Positions 24,461-52,518 of a stretch of 64,000 bases of DNA are shown here, in pieces. The DNA is taken from NCBI GenBank assembly GCA_045611765.1, contig JAZKXT010000011.1, positions 38,130 through 102,129 on the forward strand. The letters are read 5' to 3'. Within the stretch, counting starts at the first letter, position 1. Each line of letters starts with the position of its first letter. The position numbers were made by a program, and so were the translations under genes. The stretch comes from Clostridia bacterium (lineage in GTDB: Bacteria > Bacillota > Clostridia > TANB77 > CAG-465). Below the pieces are notes generated by a model. That model made no database searches and was not told the origin of the DNA. It saw only the letters and a list, made by a program, of their open reading frames with translations.

Positions 24461-24682
24461 CTTTTTTTCCTCCAAAAAAATTTTTTGTCTTTTAAAATTA
24501 CGACCACTTTTATTATACCATAAATATTATGTAAATTCAATAGCCGCCGAAGTGAAAATAATGGGCGATTTTATAGAGCACTGTAAAAACGAAAAATATT
24601 AAAATATAGCAAAAATATAAAATACAGTTGCAAATTTAAAAAATATGGTATAATATAAATGAAAAATAAGGAGGCTAAACAA

Positions 24683-26983
24683 ATGAGAAGTAAAAAGGGT
24701 GTATCACTTATAGTGTTAATAATAACAATTATAGTTATGACAATACTTGCTGGTGCTGTAATAATTTCATTAAGCAATGCTGGTATAATAGGTAAAGCTA
24801 GTGATGCGGTAGTAGCAAGTGATATAGCAAATATTCAAACACAAGTAGATATAGTTAAAGGAATGGCACAATTAGATGCCATAACTAATGGCGAAAAACT
24901 AACGCAAGAAAAATTGACACAAGAGATACAGAAACATTTTAAAGATAGTACGGTAGAAGGAAACATAATAACAGTAGAAAGAGGTAAATATGATATAGCT
25001 ATAGGAGAAGATTTAACTATATCTATTGGAAAACACGGAGAAGTTAGTGATAGCGTAAAGGATATTAAAGTAACTTACACAACAGAATATACCGGTAGTG
25101 GTACAATGATAAATTTGAAAATTGAATTGCTTAACAATAAAAAATATGAAGATTACAGCGAGGAAGAGTTTGAACCGGGGGTTGCGGAAGAATTTTTAAA
25201 CGGACTTGATTTAGATGAATTACTTTATAATGCTGCTATGGCAGATGGCTATGAGGATGGAGAAGACTATTATAATTCTGAAATACAACCCGACTTAATT
25301 GAAGCATTATCATATGAAGAGTTTATAAACGATAGCGATACGGATAAAATTGTAGAAGAAAGTGTTGGTTATAAAACGGCAAAACTATATGTAAAGTATA
25401 AAATTGCATATAATATCAAAGACATGAGATTTGTAAACTATTATGTGTCAACTATGTTGAAGGCGAAAGAACAGTATCCGGAAGTGTCTGGAAAATCATT
25501 TGAAGAATTACAAGACTTTATTGAAACTATATATGATAATGAAAAAACGTTTGATGAAATAACAACGGATTTAGTTTCTGATAGTTTTGAAAGCTGGTAC
25601 GGAGACCGTAATGATTATACTGTAGAAGAAGCATATGTATATACTCGCGAGCAAGTAGTGATAGCAATGATTTGGGATGCATTTGTAGATACACATCCTA
25701 TATTAATAGAGTACCCAGATGGAAGCCAAGAAGAAATAACATTTTGGACTGAACAAAATATATTTGAAGATTTGAGTTATATAATCACAACACCAGGTGA
25801 TTATACTATAAAAGTAACAAGCCCAAGTGGTTATACTGAAACGATTTACCTAAATCTAGAGGCAGAAGATTTGATTCAAGCAGTTCCTGAAAAATGGCAA
25901 TCGAATGTTGTTGCGATAGTAAATACAGTTCCAATCCCTAAAGGATTTGTGGCATCTCAGGCAACAGGAGAAAACACGAAAGAGGGTGGGCTTGTAATAT
26001 ATGAAGGGACAACACCTGTAACAGATGCAAATGTAGAAGCGGCAAAAAGAGATAGAAACCAATATGTATGGGTGCCAGTGGAAGACTTCAGTAAGTTTAT
26101 AAGACAAGAATTTGGTGTATCAACAGAAATATCTAATGAATTAGGAATGGAATATTGGGAAGTAATATTAGATATAACAACTAACATGCCGCTTAGCACA
26201 CAAAGTACAAGTTATATAACAGGTACGACTCTAGAGGAAGTACAAGAAATGTATGAAAGTGTAAAAGAATATCAAGGGTTCTATGTGGCAAGATATGAAG
26301 TCGGATTGGATGTAGAAAGCTACAAGACGGGTTATAGTGGTTCTATAATGTCGAATGTACATTCAAAAATGAATAAAGCACCATATAATTACATCAAATG
26401 GGGAAATAGTATGAGTGACGATAGATATGGAGCGGTAGAAGTAGCAAGAAGTATATATCCAAAAACAAATAGAAATTACGGAGTAGTATCTACACTAACA
26501 TATGGAGTACAATGGGATAGGACACTTGCGTGGTGGGTGGAAACCAAAGCTCAAAATGGGACAGGAGATATAATAATATCAAGCGACACACAGTTAAATA
26601 ACAGTACATTATATGGAAATCATACTGAGAGCGAAATATCAGTAAATTCCTTTAATGATGGAGCAAAGTACTTGTTGTATAGTAATTCTACGCTTGCAAC
26701 AACATATAAAGATGTAACAACCTATAAATCTTCAAGCGTATCTTGGTTGTTAACAACAGGAGCTACAGAGACCGCAAGGATAAATAACATTTACGATATG
26801 GCCGGAAATTTATATGAATATACTATGGAGGCTTATTCAAATAATAAACGTATTCAACGCGGCGGTGCGTACAGAGTAGCATACAGTTCTGGCGTTCCTC
26901 GTGTTACTAGTCGTTACATAGAGAATGTGGGTGCTATTACAGACTACTTTGGTTTCCGTGTAGCATTATACATAAAGAAATAA
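24683..26983 (+). CDS. Type IV pilin-like N-terminus, acidic insert domain and CLec/FGE-like domain, paralog 3
   Basis: KG|VSLIVLIITIIVMTILAG; C-terminal ~350 aa homologous to paralogs 1 and 2. RBS GGAGG precedes the ATG at 24683 (ORF track starts at 24659). Confidence 0.9.
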   Translation: MRSKKGVSLIVLIITIIVMTILAGAVIISLSNAGIIGKASDAVVASDIANIQTQVDIVKGMAQLDAITNGEKLTQEKLTQEIQKHFKDSTVEGNIITVERGKYDIAIGEDLTISIGKHGEVSDSVKDIKVTYTTEYTGSGTMINLKIELLNNKKYEDYSEEEFEPGVAEEFLNGLDLDELLYNAAMADGYEDGEDYYNSEIQPDLIEALSYEEFINDSDTDKIVEESVGYKTAKLYVKYKIAYNIKDMRFVNYYVSTMLKAKEQYPEVSGKSFEELQDFIETIYDNEKTFDEITTDLVSDSFESWYGDRNDYTVEEAYVYTREQVVIAMIWDAFVDTHPILIEYPDGSQEEITFWTEQNIFEDLSYIITTPGDYTIKVTSPSGYTETIYLNLEAEDLIQAVPEKWQSNVVAIVNTVPIPKGFVASQATGENTKEGGLVIYEGTTPVTDANVEAAKRDRNQYVWVPVEDFSKFIRQEFGVSTEISNELGMEYWEVILDITTNMPLSTQSTSYITGTTLEEVQEMYESVKEYQGFYVARYEVGLDVESYKTGYSGSIMSNVHSKMNKAPYNYIKWGNSMSDDRYGAVEVARSIYPKTNRNYGVVSTLTYGVQWDRTLAWWVETKAQNGTGDIIISSDTQLNNSTLYGNHTESEISVNSFNDGAKYLLYSNSTLATTYKDVTTYKSSSVSWLLTTGATETARINNIYDMAGNLYEYTMEAYSNNKRIQRGGAYRVAYSSGVPRVTSRYIENVGAITDYFGFRVALYIKK

Positions 26984-49460: not shown

Positions 49461-50288
49461 ATGGTTATGAAAACGGTTGTAATAACAGGAAGTGCTAGAG
49501 GACTAGGCTTTGAGATGGCTAAAGTATTTAGACAAAACAATGTTAATGTAATGTTAAGTGATTTAGACGAGCAAAAGTTAAAAGCCGCCAAGAGCAGATT
49601 GGAAAAAGTTGAAGGAAATGCTGGCATTGCATATGCTGTATGTGATGTAACAAAAGCAGAAGATATACAAAACTTAATAAAAGAAGCAAAAGAAAACTTC
49701 TTAAAGATAGACATATGGATAAATAATGCTGGTGTAAACCAACCAGAAAAACCTATTTGGGAGCTAACTGAACAGGAGATAAATACAGTTGTTGATGTAG
49801 ATTTAAAGGGTGCTATTTTAGGTTCTAAATATGCGCTATTAGATATGATGCAAGAACATGAAGGAGCTATATATAACATTGAGGGCTATGGAAGTAATGA
49901 TGCTAAAATGTTGGGATTATCCGTGTATGGAACAAGTAAAAGAGCTATAACATACTTTACACAAGCTCTAGCAAAAGAATCTCAAGAAAAAGATACTGGA
50001 GTTATAATAGGTAGACTTAGCCCTGGAATTATGATTACAGATTTTATAACAAATGCTTTAGGAGATAAGGAAAAAATAAGTTTATCTGAAAAAACTAAAA
50101 AAGTGTATAACATACTAGGAGATTATCCGGATGTAGTAGCCAAGTTCTTAGTAGAAGAAATGTTAACAAATGATACTAATGATATAAAGATAGAATGGCT
50201 TACTAGCAAGAAAGCTGCGTGGCGTTTTATGACAGCGGTGTTTAACAGAAGAGATTTCTTTAGTGAACCTAAGATGTTAGATAAATAA
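49461..50288 (+). CDS. Short-chain dehydrogenase/reductase
   Basis: TGSARGLG, NNAG, YGTSK. Confidence 0.92.
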   Translation: MVMKTVVITGSARGLGFEMAKVFRQNNVNVMLSDLDEQKLKAAKSRLEKVEGNAGIAYAVCDVTKAEDIQNLIKEAKENFLKIDIWINNAGVNQPEKPIWELTEQEINTVVDVDLKGAILGSKYALLDMMQEHEGAIYNIEGYGSNDAKMLGLSVYGTSKRAITYFTQALAKESQEKDTGVIIGRLSPGIMITDFITNALGDKEKISLSEKTKKVYNILGDYPDVVAKFLVEEMLTNDTNDIKIEWLTSKKAAWRFMTAVFNRRDFFSEPKMLDK

Positions 50289-50338
50289 ATTTAATAAATA
50301 TAATATATAGATGCAAATAGAATATAAGGAGCAAACAG

Positions 50339-50385
50339 ATGAAAACAAATAAAAAGGGATTAGTTTAATAGTAATTGTAATAACA
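50339..50385 (+). pseudogene. 5' fragment of an interrupted pilin-like gene (MKTNK-KGISLIVIVIT), 1 nt short in the A5G3 run
   Basis: RBS AAGGAG, ATG at 50339; ggg att agt tta ata gta att gta ata aca = GISLIVIVIT, matching the GVSLIVLIIT leaders of the intact paralogs. Confidence 0.8.
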
Positions 50386-51333
50386 GTAATAAGCACCTAT
50401 GATGAGGTAAATAAAATAGACAAAAATCCTCCCGAAAATAAAATAATATATGAGAATGAAGTAGTAGGTTGTAAAACTTACTACTTTTAATAATATAGTA
50501 GTCATGATATAATATATATGGTAGAAATTTATATTAGGAGGAAAATACTTTATGAAGATAGCAGTTTTTTCTGATATACACGGAAATTTACAAGCATTAG
50601 AAACAATAGTTCAAGATATTAAAAAAAACAACTTTGATGAAGTTATATGTTTAGGGGATATTATCGCTATGGGACCTAATCCTAAAGAGTGTATTGATTT
50701 GATAATTGAGAATAATTACAAAATGGTTTTGGGAAATCATGAATTGTATTATCTGAAAGGGACACAAATAGACGATGAAATGGGAGAAGGAGAAATACAA
50801 CACCAAAACTGGATTAAAGGACAATTAAAAGATGATTATATAGATTGCCTTAATAAATGCTCAATGAAAATAGAAATAACTAAAAATAATATAAAACTTT
50901 TATTTCAACATTTTTTAATTGATTATGATTCTAAAGATGAATATCCATTTGAGGATCTAAGTGTTGTTAAGGATGGTAGAATTAATAAGAAATTTGATAA
51001 AATTAACACAGATTATATGTTTATAGGCCATGAACATAAAAGTTTTGAAATTGAAATATATAATAAAAAATTAGTAGACATTGGGAGTAGTGGTTGTAGA
51101 AAAAATGACGAAACTTTCTATACTATTATTACAATTGAAAATGATGTTGTTAATATTGAAAAAAAATACTTGATTTATGACAGAGATAAATTTGTTTCAG
51201 CAATTAAGAATATAGAATACCCTGAAAGAAAAACAATTTCAAAAATATTTTTTGGAATAAATGATTTATAGAATATATAAAGAAATAAGAAATACAATAA
51301 AGTAATCCCTTGTCATAAGAACTTGTTAATACA
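50383..51333. mobile_element. 948-bp non-autonomous insert in a pilin gene, with serine-integrase-like attL/attR
   Basis: ACA core at 50383-50385 and 51331-51333; inner arms 50387-50407 and 51308-51328 form a 15/21 inverted repeat; removal rejoins IVIT|IIVMII in frame. Confidence 0.7.
50552..51271 (+). CDS. Calcineurin-like metallophosphoesterase (cargo of the insert)
   Basis: SDIHGN, LGD, GNHE, GHEH motifs. Confidence 0.92.
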   Translation: MKIAVFSDIHGNLQALETIVQDIKKNNFDEVICLGDIIAMGPNPKECIDLIIENNYKMVLGNHELYYLKGTQIDDEMGEGEIQHQNWIKGQLKDDYIDCLNKCSMKIEITKNNIKLLFQHFLIDYDSKDEYPFEDLSVVKDGRINKKFDKINTDYMFIGHEHKSFEIEIYNKKLVDIGSSGCRKNDETFYTIITIENDVVNIEKKYLIYDRDKFVSAIKNIEYPERKTISKIFFGINDL

Positions 51334-52518
51334 ATAATAGTAATGATAATAATAGCATCAACATTAGTTGTTTCAATGAACCTTACAAACATTATTGAAA
51401 AATCTGAGCAGGCGGTGCAAGGCTCGCGCTTGGCCTCGGCGAAAGTGACAATTGCGATGTATGCCCTATTAAATATACAACCACAAGATGTTGATGGCGT
51501 TGTAAAAAATGCTGTTGTAGACAATCAAAATAATATAATGGATGAAAGTTCATATAAGAATGTATTAGAGAAATCAGGCTTTAATTCTAACGATTACGTT
51601 ATTGTTGTTAATAAATGTGGATTTGTAGATAATATATTATTAAAAGAAGGCAAGTCATATATTGTTAAAAACACAACTCAAAATATATATTATGATAATA
51701 TGTTAGAGGCGCTAGAACAAGCAAATGCTAATGATATTATTGAAATTACAGGTGGAAAATTTGATTTTACAGAAAGTGGTTTAGTAATAGATAAGCCTTT
51801 AACAATAAAGGGAGTGAGCGCTAAGTCTAAACCGGTGTTTCTATTAGAAACGTCTGATGGTACAGGAGAACTTAATACAATAAAAAGTGGCATAATCATA
51901 AAGTCCGATAATGTTGTTTTAAGTAATTTGATTTTAAAAATATCAGAAGGATGTTTTTCTACAGGAAATCTGATATCAATACCATATAGGTCACAGTTAT
52001 ATACAGGAATTGTTTTAGATAATTGTGAATTTTATGGTTCTAATCACAGTGTACAAATTCATGCAAATAATATGAACATAAGAAATTGTATATTTATTGG
52101 TAGAGCTCAAAGAAAACACGGAATTTCTTTCTATTCTGCGCAGAACAGTAGCATATCAGGAAATATTATCATAAGAAATAATATATTCGAAGATATATAT
52201 AAGGGAATAGTTCATGAAAGCACAATTCCGTATTCTAATGTTAATGTAGAAATAAGTGGAAATATATTTGAAAATTATAAGAAAAAGGCAGTTTCTGTTG
52301 ATAATGGAGAATATCTTTCATATGTAGTTAAGGAAAATGTTTTTTCAATTCCAACGGGTGACACTGTAATAATAGATAACGGCGTGAATTTTCCTGTAGA
52401 TGCGAATGACAATTATTTTGGAGAAGAACAGCCGGTAAAATCCAATATATTTGAAGGAAACGTAAACGCAATATCATATTATATAGATGAGAGTAAAACA
52501 AGTAAGCAACAATGGTAA
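51331..52518 (+). CDS. 3' part of the interrupted pilin-like gene, with right-handed beta-helix domain
   Basis: Begins TIIVMIIIASTLVVSM (second half of the pilin helix); in-frame stop at 51316; no evident RBS; ALEQANANDIIEI..IDKPLTIKG and IxxNxF repeats. Confidence 0.8.
   Translation, partial: TIIVMIIIASTLVVSMNLTNIIEKSEQAVQGSRLASAKVTIAMYALLNIQPQDVDGVVKNAVVDNQNNIMDESSYKNVLEKSGFNSNDYVIVVNKCGFVDNILLKEGKSYIVKNTTQNIYYDNMLEALEQANANDIIEITGGKFDFTESGLVIDKPLTIKGVSAKSKPVFLLETSDGTGELNTIKSGIIIKSDNVVLSNLILKISEGCFSTGNLISIPYRSQLYTGIVLDNCEFYGSNHSVQIHANNMNIRNCIFIGRAQRKHGISFYSAQNSSISGNIIIRNNIFEDIYKGIVHESTIPYSNVNVEISGNIFENYKKKAVSVDNGEYLSYVVKENVFSIPTGDTVIIDNGVNFPVDANDNYFGEEQPVKSNIFEGNVNAISYYIDESKTSKQQW

What the first reader, a model, noticed from the sequence alone, without database searches (positions are those of the whole stretch)
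50339..52518. Pilin gene split inside its conserved helix by a recombinase-less 948-bp cassette with serine-integrase-like att sites
Seen: a pilin leader (RBS, ATG at 50339, ...GISLIVIVIT) breaks off at ACA 50383-50385. The rest (TIIVMIIIAST... plus a beta-helix domain) resumes at ACA 51331-51333, 948 bp later. Deleting the insert gives gta ata ACA ata ata gta atg, and the stretch ataacaataatagtaatgataat is identical to the intact paralog at ~7640. The excised circle junction would read ccttgtcataagaacttgtta-atACag-taataagcacctatgatgagg: 48 bp, 21-bp arms matching 15/21 as an inverted repeat, with AC at the exact centre. Established: this is the architecture of large serine recombinase attP sites, and elements interrupting comGC-type pilin or sigK genes are known. 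Inference: this is a minimal element carrying one phosphoesterase gene and moved by an integrase in trans. It would act either as an excision-controlled pilin switch or as a cassette system using the multi-copy pilin helix as attB.
Basis: partly seen in the sequence, partly recalled or inferred. Interest (0 to 1): 0.88.

Follow-up and report, generated by a model that had tools for sequence, protein, structure and literature searches.

The report
Recombinase-less mini-element splitting a pilin-like gene
A surface-protein gene with a pilin-like leader is split by a 948-base, one-gene remnant of a mobile-element family whose serine integrase, absent from this genome, targets exactly this spot in the leader in related gut bacteria.

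Summary
The split is real. The leader-helix coding sequence stops after ACA 50383-85 and resumes at ACA 51331-33. The 948 bp between carry one metallophosphoesterase gene.

The two arms are not chance. They form a 15/21 inverted repeat; 14 of 200,000 random pairs reach that. The same geometry (GTCATAA-N12-AC, AC.-N11-TTATGAC) recurs in relatives. In G341 a stub plus left arm, cargo, a Mob_Pre relaxase and a large serine recombinase (LSR) are followed by the right arm and an orphan 3' half. In 21 of the 30 best loci holding that LSR's homologues, the stop codon is followed within 60 nt by a helix 3' half. Stub-plus-left-arm units occur in 26 of 401 genomes of the order.

This genome holds no serine recombinase. 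The insert is therefore a miniature, recombinase-less, CIME-like derivative of a Tn4451-like integrative mobilizable element family that uses the multi-copy leader helix as attB. Here it is probably stuck and the gene is dead.

Trans-mobilisation is inferred. A near-identical cassette contig in another metagenome run diverges exactly at 51333. The "switch" idea is unsupported. I rate it a new member of a known kind, of moderate interest.

The parts
50326..50385 (+). attL, host side. This is the 5' stub of a leader-family gene: RBS at 50326-31, ATG at 50339, leader and first half of the hydrophobic helix, ending in core codon ACA 50383-85. It carries a 1-nt frameshift in the A5/G3 run at 50351-58.
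   Evidence: sequence; the leader profile aligns up to profile position 66. G004 has an intact leader gene at the same place after the SDR gene.
50386..50495 (+). Left arm (LA, the element side of attL). It holds the P' half-site with motif CTATGAT at 50397-50403, 11 nt after ACA; a conserved TCCTCCC box at 50427-33; and a hairpin plus T-run (an intrinsic-terminator shape) at 50458-50487.
   Evidence: homology to 20 other left arms; invariant AC, TTATGAC-type motif and TTCCTC box. (fold, z -4.28).
50505..51271 (+). Cargo module: extended -10 tgatataat at 50505-13, RBS aggagg at 50536-41, and a 239-aa metallophosphoesterase ORF at 50552-51271.
   Evidence: (PDB 3rqz, E 1.2e-10); an 85% identical gene with its own promoter lies in another MAG without arms.
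51275..51330 (+). Right arm (RA, the element side of attR). Motif GTCATAA lies at 51312-18, followed by a 12-nt spacer at 51319-30.
   Evidence: 47/60 identical to the G031 right arm; the same motif and spacing lie after LSR stop codons.
51331..52518 (+). attR, host side. This is the orphan 3' half of the leader-family gene: core ACA 51331-33, the second half of the helix, then a repetitive C-terminal domain. The first ATG is at 51343, with no SD sequence before it.
   Evidence: It is the only orphan 3' half in the genome.
7616..7680 (+). Example of an intact, unoccupied attB: the leader-helix coding sequence of the paralogue at 7550-9013. A second copy lies at 24659-26983.
   Evidence: 13 intact copies in the genome.

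Best explanation
The 948-bp insert is a miniature, recombinase-less derivative of a family of Tn4451-like integrative mobilizable elements. In the vocabulary of integrative elements it is a CIME: attL and attR are kept, while the integration and transfer genes are lost.

Full members of the family carry a large serine recombinase of the DUF4368 type at their right end. They often also carry TnpV, a Mob_Pre relaxase and accessory genes. They integrate at one fixed point, an AC dinucleotide in the threonine codon of the ...VLVIT|IIV... helix. This lies in the conserved N-terminal coding sequence shared by a multi-copy family of pilin-like surface-protein genes.

Shown here:
- the split itself;
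- the homology and geometry of both arms;
- the association of these arms with the LSR in relatives;
- the absence of any serine recombinase in this genome.

Inferred:
- The ancestor integrated by attP x attB recombination at the AC core.
- Internal loss or cargo exchange left only a left arm (P' half-site plus a terminator that stops host read-through), one cargo gene with its own promoter, and a right arm.
- In this strain the element cannot move, and the interrupted gene is a pseudogene, since its stub is also frameshifted.
- A cognate LSR supplied in trans could still excise or move it.
For: The split and the single cargo gene are seen.

Arm symmetry is 15/21 in this window, 15/21 in G341 and 14/21 in G031, against 7/21 for an intact attB. 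Random pairs reach 15/21 or more in 14 of 200,000 trials.

G341:C113 holds the full layout: stub, LA, AlbA_2, AAA_25, Mob_Pre, LSR (Resolvase, Recombinase, Zn_ribbon_recom, DUF4368), then GTCATAA-N12-ACA and a helix 3' half.

In 21 of the 30 best LSR-homologue loci a helix 3' half starts within 60 nt after the stop codon. One locus was too short to judge and 8 have none. G369 has an intact 564-aa LSR followed by RA and an fn3 protein 3' half.

Stub-plus-LA units occur in 26 of 401 genomes of the order, all broken at the same helix position. The alignment of 21 left arms has an invariant AC, a TTATGAC-type motif and a TTCCTC box, and each arm ends in a hairpin with a T-run.

G031, from another genus, has a homologous LA and RA (47/60 identical) around a different cargo, a GH10-like/PHP protein.

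This genome lacks PF00239, PF07508 and homologues of the G341 LSR. It is 98.4% complete.

The cargo is foreign to the genus: it is found in 1 of 12 other genomes of the genus, at 33% identity.

X2 contig record 16 matches 51111-51333 with 2 differences, then runs on for 143 nt unlike the window. X1 record 8 has a right-arm-like stretch (51284-51355, 7 differences) between other sequences.

The CIME concept, and the fact that serine-recombinase IMEs integrate inside genes, come from passages of PMC5704250.
Against: - No empty site of this very gene and no circle junction was seen. The only skipping joint has a 20-nt side and is another paralogue.
- The cognate LSR for this arm subtype was not found. 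The arms here differ from the LSR-adjacent consensus: RA is 42/68 identical to G341, and LA has a 9-nt deletion and the motif CTATGAT instead of TTATGAC. They may no longer be substrates.
- None of the 30 loci first fetched with the general Recombinase domain had a leader nearby.
- The G031 element spans a contig gap, so whether it lacks an LSR is not proven.
- The LSR in G341 itself is read as two ORFs.
Confidence: 0.8

Rival explanations
1. The insert belongs to an actively spreading family of non-autonomous one-gene cassettes built on an LA + cargo + RA chassis. LSRs of co-resident elements move them in trans, and they exchange cargo. This would be an integron-like gene-capture system at the multi-copy leader helix, not a one-off decay product.
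For: This cassette and the G031 cassette share LA and RA. The RA homology is 47/60 and starts at the same point, right after unrelated cargo genes.

X1 record 8 shows a third right arm of this subtype with other flanks. The cassette interior is 99-100% identical in contigs of 4 runs from 3 studies.

L180 carries the same LA and first cargo ORF as G000 C7 stub 1, behind a different host gene.
Against: No circle or empty site was seen, and no LSR for this arm subtype was identified. The G031 cassette crosses a contig gap. Only 2 of the 19 species representatives of genera g1-g3 have such arms. Logan contigs are short and cannot show full contexts.
Confidence: 0.3
2. The insert is an excision-controlled switch, as with sigK/skin or comK prophages. 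It would be cut out under some condition to restore the surface-protein gene.
For: The architecture would allow precise restoration of the helix codons.
Against: There is no serine recombinase in a 98.4% complete genome. The stub is frameshifted. Stubs without partners (C7, G004, many f2 genomes) show that insertion is usually a dead end.
Confidence: 0.04
3. The insert is a cassette moved by a tyrosine recombinase: a Xer/dif-like module, an integron-like attC cassette, or the 381-aa integrase at C12.
For: The genome has XerD-like, XerC-like and phage-type integrases. The arms end in a ...CATAA / TTATG... pattern that distantly recalls dif half-sites. The dif motif is recalled and comes from no call.
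Against: The inverted motifs lie 26 nt apart, not 6-8. The junction folded as single-stranded DNA is no better than shuffles (z about 0). NCBIfam scores for integron integrase are far below cut-off. The same arms sit directly after LSR genes in 21 of 30 loci.
Confidence: 0.04
4. The insert is removed at the RNA level, as a group I/II intron or an IStron-like element.
For: The 5' and 3' ends are conserved around a variable ORF, at one precise position in a coding sequence.
Against: No Rfam family is found up to E 10 except three chance-level hits. The 5' arm ends in a terminator shape. Full elements are 10-kb DNA elements with a relaxase and an integrase.
Confidence: 0.01
5. The stub plus left arm is a real small gene, a roughly 60-aa pilin-like protein, and the downstream gene merely has a short N-terminus. 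On this view nothing is split.
For: 38 other short ORFs (42-76 aa) are 59-85% identical to the C7 stub ORF in the protein collection. Some differences between copies are synonymous (by eye, from the sequences).
Against: The two left-arm subfamilies are homologous as DNA but read in different frames after the TTCCTCC box, and G031 has a frameshift there. The hydrophobic stretch is cut to about 12 residues. The ORF tails follow the terminator hairpin. Homologues of the 3' half carry a full leader.
Confidence: 0.04

Closest known systems
Tn4451/Tn4453 family of integrative mobilizable elements of clostridia (TnpX large serine recombinase, TnpV, Mob/Pre relaxase)
   Same: Full relatives of the insert carry a DUF4368-type LSR, a TnpV protein and a Mob_Pre relaxase. 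Recombination appears to occur at a short core, here AC. Passages of PMC5704250 state that Tn4451 recombines between 2-bp identical sequences and encodes a MobV relaxase.
   Different: The review describes Tn4451 as having low integration specificity. This family hits one fixed point in a conserved leader helix. In this family the LSR lies at the right end and reads outward. The window's element has lost the LSR, TnpV and the relaxase. The gene order of Tn4451 is recalled, not checked.
CIMEs (cis-mobilizable elements: decayed ICEs/IMEs that keep attL and attR)
   Same: The insert keeps both att sites and has no integration or transfer genes, which matches the definition quoted in PMC5704250. 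The tandem stub arrays (G000 C7, G083) resemble the accretion and decay described there.
   Different: The cases I recall are based on tyrosine integrases, at gene ends; I did not check this. Here the integrase is a serine recombinase, the site is inside a gene, and the element is only 948 bp with one gene.
Multi-targeting clade of large serine recombinases with DUF4368 (Durrant et al. 2022, PMC10083194)
   Same: The domain architecture is the same. The paper's passages say such LSRs may have evolved to target sequences that occur at multiple sites in the host. Here the site is a helix-coding sequence present in 13 intact copies in this genome.
   Different: The passages I read name no pilin-like leader target. 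The supplements, which list target motifs, could not be seen.
Gene-interrupting elements excised by serine recombinases (sigK skin, comK prophages)
   Same: An element with LSR-type att sites lies inside a coding sequence, and precise excision would restore the gene. This comparison is recalled and comes from no call.
   Different: Those elements carry their own recombinase and act as developmental or regulatory switches. Here there is no recombinase and a frameshifted stub.
Integron gene cassettes
   Same: Both are small promoter-bearing or promoter-less single-gene units without their own recombinase, inserted at a specific site.
   Different: There is no attC-like single-strand hairpin and no IntI. 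Both ends are conserved double-strand half-sites of a serine recombinase.

Membership tests
LSR-integrated element (Tn4451-like IME) | Encodes a large serine recombinase (Resolvase + Recombinase + zinc ribbon) | tested here: not met
   None is found in the insert or in the genome. Relatives with the same arms do have one.
LSR-integrated element (Tn4451-like IME) | Junctions derive from an attP with imperfect dyad symmetry around a short core shared with attB | tested here: met
   Symmetry is 15/21 around AC. The same holds in G341 (15/21) and G031 (14/21). Chance is 14 in 200,000.
LSR-integrated element (Tn4451-like IME) | The same arms lie next to the recombinase gene in related elements | tested here: met
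   In 21 of 30 LSR loci the stop codon is followed by GTCATAA-type motif-N12-AC and a helix 3' half.
LSR-integrated element (Tn4451-like IME) | Relaxase/oriT for mobilisation | tested here: not met
   The insert holds only a Metallophos ORF. Mob_Pre is present in G341 and G148.
LSR-integrated element (Tn4451-like IME) | Excision to a circle and re-integration | not testable with these tools
   Only Logan contigs were available. No circle or empty-site joint was seen.
CIME (decayed element keeping att sites) | attL and attR retained | tested here: met
   Both arms are present with the motif and spacing of the family.
CIME (decayed element keeping att sites) | Integration and transfer genes lost | tested here: met
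CIME (decayed element keeping att sites) | Can be mobilised by a related element | not testable with these tools
   There is only a hint: X2 record 16 diverges from the window exactly at 51333.
Integron cassette | attC that folds as an imperfect single-strand hairpin; IntI integrase | tested here: not met
   The junction folded as ssDNA gives z 0.04 to 0.23. Integron-integrase models score far below cut-off.
Self-splicing intron / IStron | Ribozyme core recognisable by covariance models | tested here: not met
   The Rfam scan of 50250-51450 gives only three hits with E 0.42 to 3.1, all far below gathering scores.
Xer-dependent module (IMEX / pdif) | 28-bp dif-like site, two 11-bp arms around a 6-bp centre | tested here: not met
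   The inverted motifs are 26 nt apart. The dif layout is recalled, not fetched.
Type IV pilin (the interrupted gene) | Class III signal peptide with G at -1 and E at +5; N_methyl domain | tested here: inconclusive
   The KKG|ISLIV leader fits the G at -1, but +5 is V, and no Pfam N_methyl hit is found at E 0.01 or lower for the paralogues.
Type IV pilin (the interrupted gene) | Prepilin peptidase in the genome | tested here: met
   PF01478 is found at C12:24364-24729, E 2.8e-16.

The most novel reading that the evidence does not exclude
The LA + cargo + RA units may be a self-standing family of non-autonomous single-gene cassettes. DUF4368 serine recombinases of resident Tn4451-like elements would move them in trans between the many leader-helix copies of a genome, and between species. 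Functionally this would be a serine-recombinase analogue of the integron cassette pool, shuffling accessory genes and knocking out surface proteins in uncultured small-genome gut bacteria.
Probability: 0.3. Interest if true: 0.7.

Novelty: new member of a known kind. Interest (0 to 1): 0.5.

Why it matters
The finding ties an odd split gene to a concrete mechanism. It also uncovers a widespread element family in an order of small-genome, largely uncultured gut bacteria. Stubs occur in 26 of 401 genomes, and homologues of the LSR (at E<=1e-20, so not only this family) in 176 of 401.

The family uses the conserved leader-helix coding sequence of pilin-like surface proteins as a multi-copy landing site. 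That has three consequences:
- It explains a class of short 'hypothetical proteins' (about 60 aa) in public collections. They are artefacts made of a gene stub plus an element arm.
- It shows how surface-protein repertoires in these bacteria are eroded or varied by integration.
- It provides natural LSR/attB/attP sets, with a minimal 948-bp substrate that marks what the enzyme needs in cis. These may be useful as genetic tools for organisms that have none.

The kind of element (a serine-recombinase IME and its decayed derivative) is already known.

Tried and rejected
Searches and ideas that led nowhere:

- **Within-genome BLAST.** BLAST of the arms and the insert against the genome found no second copy.
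- **DNA searches of the family.** Searches with the window's own arms gave mostly AT-rich noise. Only G031:C15 was real.
- **Degenerate right-arm pattern.** With 2 mismatches it matched as often as its reversed control. That search was wasted.
- **Blind motif scan.** A scan of the fetched loci was noise.
- **C7 left arm as DNA query.** It found only G031 as a true hit.
- **Phosphoesterase as a handle.**
  - No viral contig.
  - No JGI metagenome contig.
  - One MAG locus (L028, 85% identity) without arms.
- **Right arm in viral contigs.** No exact match.
- **Stub family in viral contigs.** None found.
- **Cassette against plasmid and phage collections.** No match.
- **LSR loci fetched with PF07508.** The 30 loci had no leader within 1.5 kb. 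This first argued against an LSR, until the specific LSR subfamily was found through G341.
- **Other recombinase families.** IS110 and IS200 families are absent from the genome.
- **G031 contigs.** Contig C68, which holds an LSR, does not overlap the ends of C30 or C15. The G031 element could therefore not be closed.
- **Cargo function.** PADLOC gave nothing for the cargo.
- **Read laying.**
  - The four runs gave no cover over 51398-52518 and only about 87% identical cover over the upstream SDR gene.
  - The one joint skipping the insert (50358 to 51331, 25 other letters between, side 20 nt) is another paralogue, not the empty site.
- **The search of earlier findings.** It was closed.
- **Paper supplements.** They were not opened. 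The supplementary target-motif figures of PMC10083194 may bear on whether this target is already listed.
- **Literature.**
  - Search (serine recombinase / prepilin / pilin / attB / integrative and mobilizable) listed no paper on such a target. I saw listings only.
  - PMC5704250 and PMC10083194 were read as passages found by term search.
Full report
**The observation.**

The window is C11:38130-102129 of a 1.10-Mb, 12-contig, 31% G+C genome. Downstream of an SDR-type gene (49461-50288) lie an RBS (50326-31) and an ATG (50339). One frame over lies the reading GISLIVIVIT, which ends with ACA at 50383-85. The same hydrophobic helix continues at ACA 51331-33 (TIIVMIIIASTLVV...) and the frame stays open to 52518.

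The 948 bp in between hold one ORF of 239 aa, a calcineurin-like metallophosphoesterase:
- Pfam Metallophos, E 1.5e-15.
- Nearest solved relative 3rqz.
- No PADLOC hit.

The string expected after removal of the insert is found exactly at 7640-62 in an intact paralogue.

The ATG at 50339 is not in frame with the helix: frame 0 reads MKTNKKGLV-stop. One extra base in the A5/G3 run at 50351-58 would be needed to join them.

**What the interrupted gene is.**

The N-terminus K-K-G-[IV]-S-L-I-V-L-[IV]-I-T-I-I-V-M-I-I-L-A heads a multi-copy family. A peptide motif finds 18 places in the genome. A DNA profile of 13 intact copies finds three 5'-only stubs (this one and two in contig C7) and a single orphan 3' half, this one.

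The C-terminal domains differ between copies. Pfam sees only weak FGE-sulfatase-like matches, below cut-off, in two window paralogues, and nothing in the 3' half.

The four database homologues of the 3' half are 36-48% identical in the alignment. Three of them start with a full KGITLIALIIT leader. So the 3' half is a truncated member of the leader family.

Pfam gives no N_methyl hit, and residue +5 is V. The genome does encode an A24 prepilin peptidase. I therefore call the gene pilin-like rather than a pilin.

In the same-genus genome G004, an intact leader-family gene with another C-domain sits directly after the orthologous SDR gene. This fits the stub being the original 5' end of a gene at this place.

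**The arms are a recurring, specific structure.**

The 21-nt arms of the inferred junction are complementary at 15/21. Random 24+24-nt pairs from the window reach that in 14 of 200,000 trials.

The two C7 stubs break at the same threonine codon and are followed by sequence homologous to the window's left arm.

Genome G031, from another genus of the family, has two matching pieces:
- A stub with a homologous left arm running to a contig end.
- At the start of another contig, a GH10-like/PHP cargo gene followed by a right arm and an orphan 3' half of a BspA-type LRR protein. The right arm is 47/60 identical to the window's.

In all arms a 7-10-nt motif (GTCATAA on the right, its complement TTATGAC or a variant on the left) lies 12 and 11 nt from the ACA.

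**Spread of the stub-plus-left-arm unit.**

- The 61-aa ORF formed by C7 stub 1 plus its left arm has 38 relatives of 42-76 aa in the protein collection.
- A JGI contig (L180) carries the same left arm and first cargo ORF behind a different host gene.
- A profile of these ORFs finds stub-plus-left-arm units in 26 of 401 genomes of the order (7 of 78 in family f1, 18 of 276 in f2). All are broken at the same helix position.
- 29 distinct junctions were collected.
- An alignment of 21 left arms has as invariant columns the AC core, the TTATGAC-type motif and a TTCCTC box. Each arm ends in a hairpin of differing sequence followed by a T-run (fold of the window's arm z -4.28).
- The two left-arm subfamilies read in different frames after the TTCCTC box. 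The conservation is therefore in the DNA or RNA, not in a protein.

**The enzyme.**

Extending 20 loci showed what lies behind the left arms in family f2:
- DUF1016/YhcG, AlbA_2/Schlafen or KilA-N-like accessory genes.
- TnpV.
- A small HTH/DnaD-like protein.
- A Mob_Pre relaxase.

In G341:C113 the whole element lies on one contig. It runs stub, left arm, AlbA_2, AAA_25, Mob_Pre, two genes on the other strand, then a large serine recombinase (Resolvase; Recombinase, Zn_ribbon_recom and DUF4368; read as two ORFs). Nine bases after its stop come GTCATAA, 12 nt, ACA and the second half of a leader helix.

With the C-terminal half of that LSR as query, 176 of 401 genomes of the order have a match at E 1e-20 or lower. 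This genome has none. Of the 30 best loci:
- 21 show a hydrophobic helix 3' half starting at an ACN codon within 60 nt of the LSR stop.
- One is cut by a contig end.
- Eight show none. Three of those have the right arm joined to other sequence.

G369 has an intact 564-aa LSR with all four domains, followed by the right arm and the 3' half of an fn3 protein. The inferred junction of G341 is again 15/21 symmetric and that of G031 is 14/21. An intact attB scores 7/21.

**What the window's insert is.**

This genome is 98.4% complete and has no Resolvase domain, no Recombinase domain and no relative of the G341 LSR. It has XerD-like, XerC-like and one phage-type tyrosine recombinase. It has no IS110 or IS200 transposase.

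The insert keeps only four things:
- The left arm, made of a half-site, the TTCCTC box and a terminator shape.
- A cargo gene with its own extended -10 and RBS.
- The right arm.
- Nothing else: no recombinase, TnpV or relaxase.

The cargo is an accessory gene:
- Among the 12 other genomes of the genus, one has a relative, at 33% identity.
- The closest GTDB copy (85% identity) sits in another MAG, with its promoter but without arms.

[quoted passage not shown] It also fits that review's statement that serine-recombinase IMEs integrate inside genes and disrupt them (passages of PMC5704250).

The DUF4368 LSR clade has been described as multi-targeting, possibly through targets that occur at several sites in a host (passages of PMC10083194). 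Here the repeated target is the leader helix.

**Is it still mobile?**

This was not shown. Contigs of four gut-metagenome runs from three studies hold the cassette interior at 99-100% identity.
- X2 record 16 matches 51111-51333 with two differences, then continues for 143 nt unlike the window. It diverges exactly at the last base of the core.
- X1 record 8 holds a right arm of this subtype (7 differences in 72) between other sequences.

This cassette and the G031 cassette share a right-arm homology that begins at the same point, directly after unrelated cargo genes. This hints at a propagating recombinase-less chassis rather than two independent deletions.

Against that stand several points:
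- No circle or empty site was seen.
- The cognate LSR of this arm subtype was not identified.
- The G031 element crosses a contig gap.
- The window's left arm has a 9-nt deletion and a variant motif.

I put 0.8 on 'LSR-less derivative of this IME family, stuck in this strain'. Within that, I put about 0.3 on an actively trans-mobilised cassette family.

**Rivals.**

- An RNA-level intron is unsupported (Rfam).
- An attC-like single-strand hairpin is unsupported.
- A Xer-type site does not fit the 26-nt spacing.
- A regulatory excision switch lacks an enzyme and faces a frameshifted stub.
- A genuine 60-aa protein is contradicted by the frame differences between arm subfamilies.

**Verdict.**

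The kind of element is known (serine-recombinase IME, Tn4451-like, and its decayed derivative). The target, the breadth of the family in these gut bacteria and the one-gene miniature are new members of that kind.

Noticed in passing
G000 contig C7:87939-90627 (locus L130:1939-4627), outside the window: There is a tandem array: stub 1 + left arm + three small ORFs (one DUF3592), then stub 2 + left arm + one 130-aa ORF, then an intact leader-family gene with its own start. No right arm is present. G083:C69 has the same layout. It is probably the result of decay or accretion of elements in neighbouring paralogues.
   Followed up: partly
window 50427-50433 and the equivalent position in all left arms (alignment A4): A TTCCTC(C) box, complementary to a Shine-Dalgarno sequence, is nearly invariant in 21 left arms. 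In the window it is predicted to pair with the cargo RBS at 50536-41. Its role is unexplained; it could be a regulatory RNA, a protein-binding site or chance pairing.
   Followed up: partly
protein collection, P0009-P0046: 38 'proteins' of 42-76 aa in public collections are gene stubs fused to the element's left arm (consensus ...GISLIVLVITMIVPYYETLKASKIGKVPPKNKIE...). One is named a hypothetical protein of a Clostridia MAG. They are likely annotation artefacts.
   Followed up: partly
L212 (G148:C17) and L224 (G341:C113), inside the elements after Mob_Pre: Both elements carry, on the opposite strand, a leader-family gene whose frame breaks right after the helix and continues in another frame. 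The same oddity occurs in two genomes. It could be a programmed shift, an inversion scar or decay.
   Followed up: no
L231, L235, L237 (G078, G397, G283): The LSR gene and right arm are joined at the AC core to sequence that is not a leader helix. These may be secondary target sites, in keeping with a 'multi-targeting' clade.
   Followed up: no
G000 contig C12:79000-90200: A small island holds an Xre-type regulator, a 381-aa phage-type tyrosine integrase (82303-83448), a 709-aa protein and several unknown genes. It is unrelated to the leader-helix elements.
   Followed up: no
window 7550-9013 and 24659-26983: Two intact leader-family paralogues share a conserved C-terminal region of about 300 aa. 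Their FGE-sulfatase matches are weak and below cut-off. Several contigs of the assembly end inside such paralogues.
   Followed up: no
L167, L168 (G010, G011), downstream of the orthologous SDR gene: The closest relatives (SDR 93-95% identical) have other genes here: a transposase-like ORF in one, and an ORF that by eye resembles the DUF1016/YhcG cargo genes in the other. So the site after the SDR gene is a variable spot in the genus.
   Followed up: no
G007:C17:1447-2200 (L259/L262), same genus: A decayed C-terminal LSR fragment (53% identical to G341's, with one TGA inside) is followed by a right-arm-like ATCACAA-N12-ACA and a degenerate helix 3' half. It is a relic of the family in the window's own genus.
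   Followed up: partly
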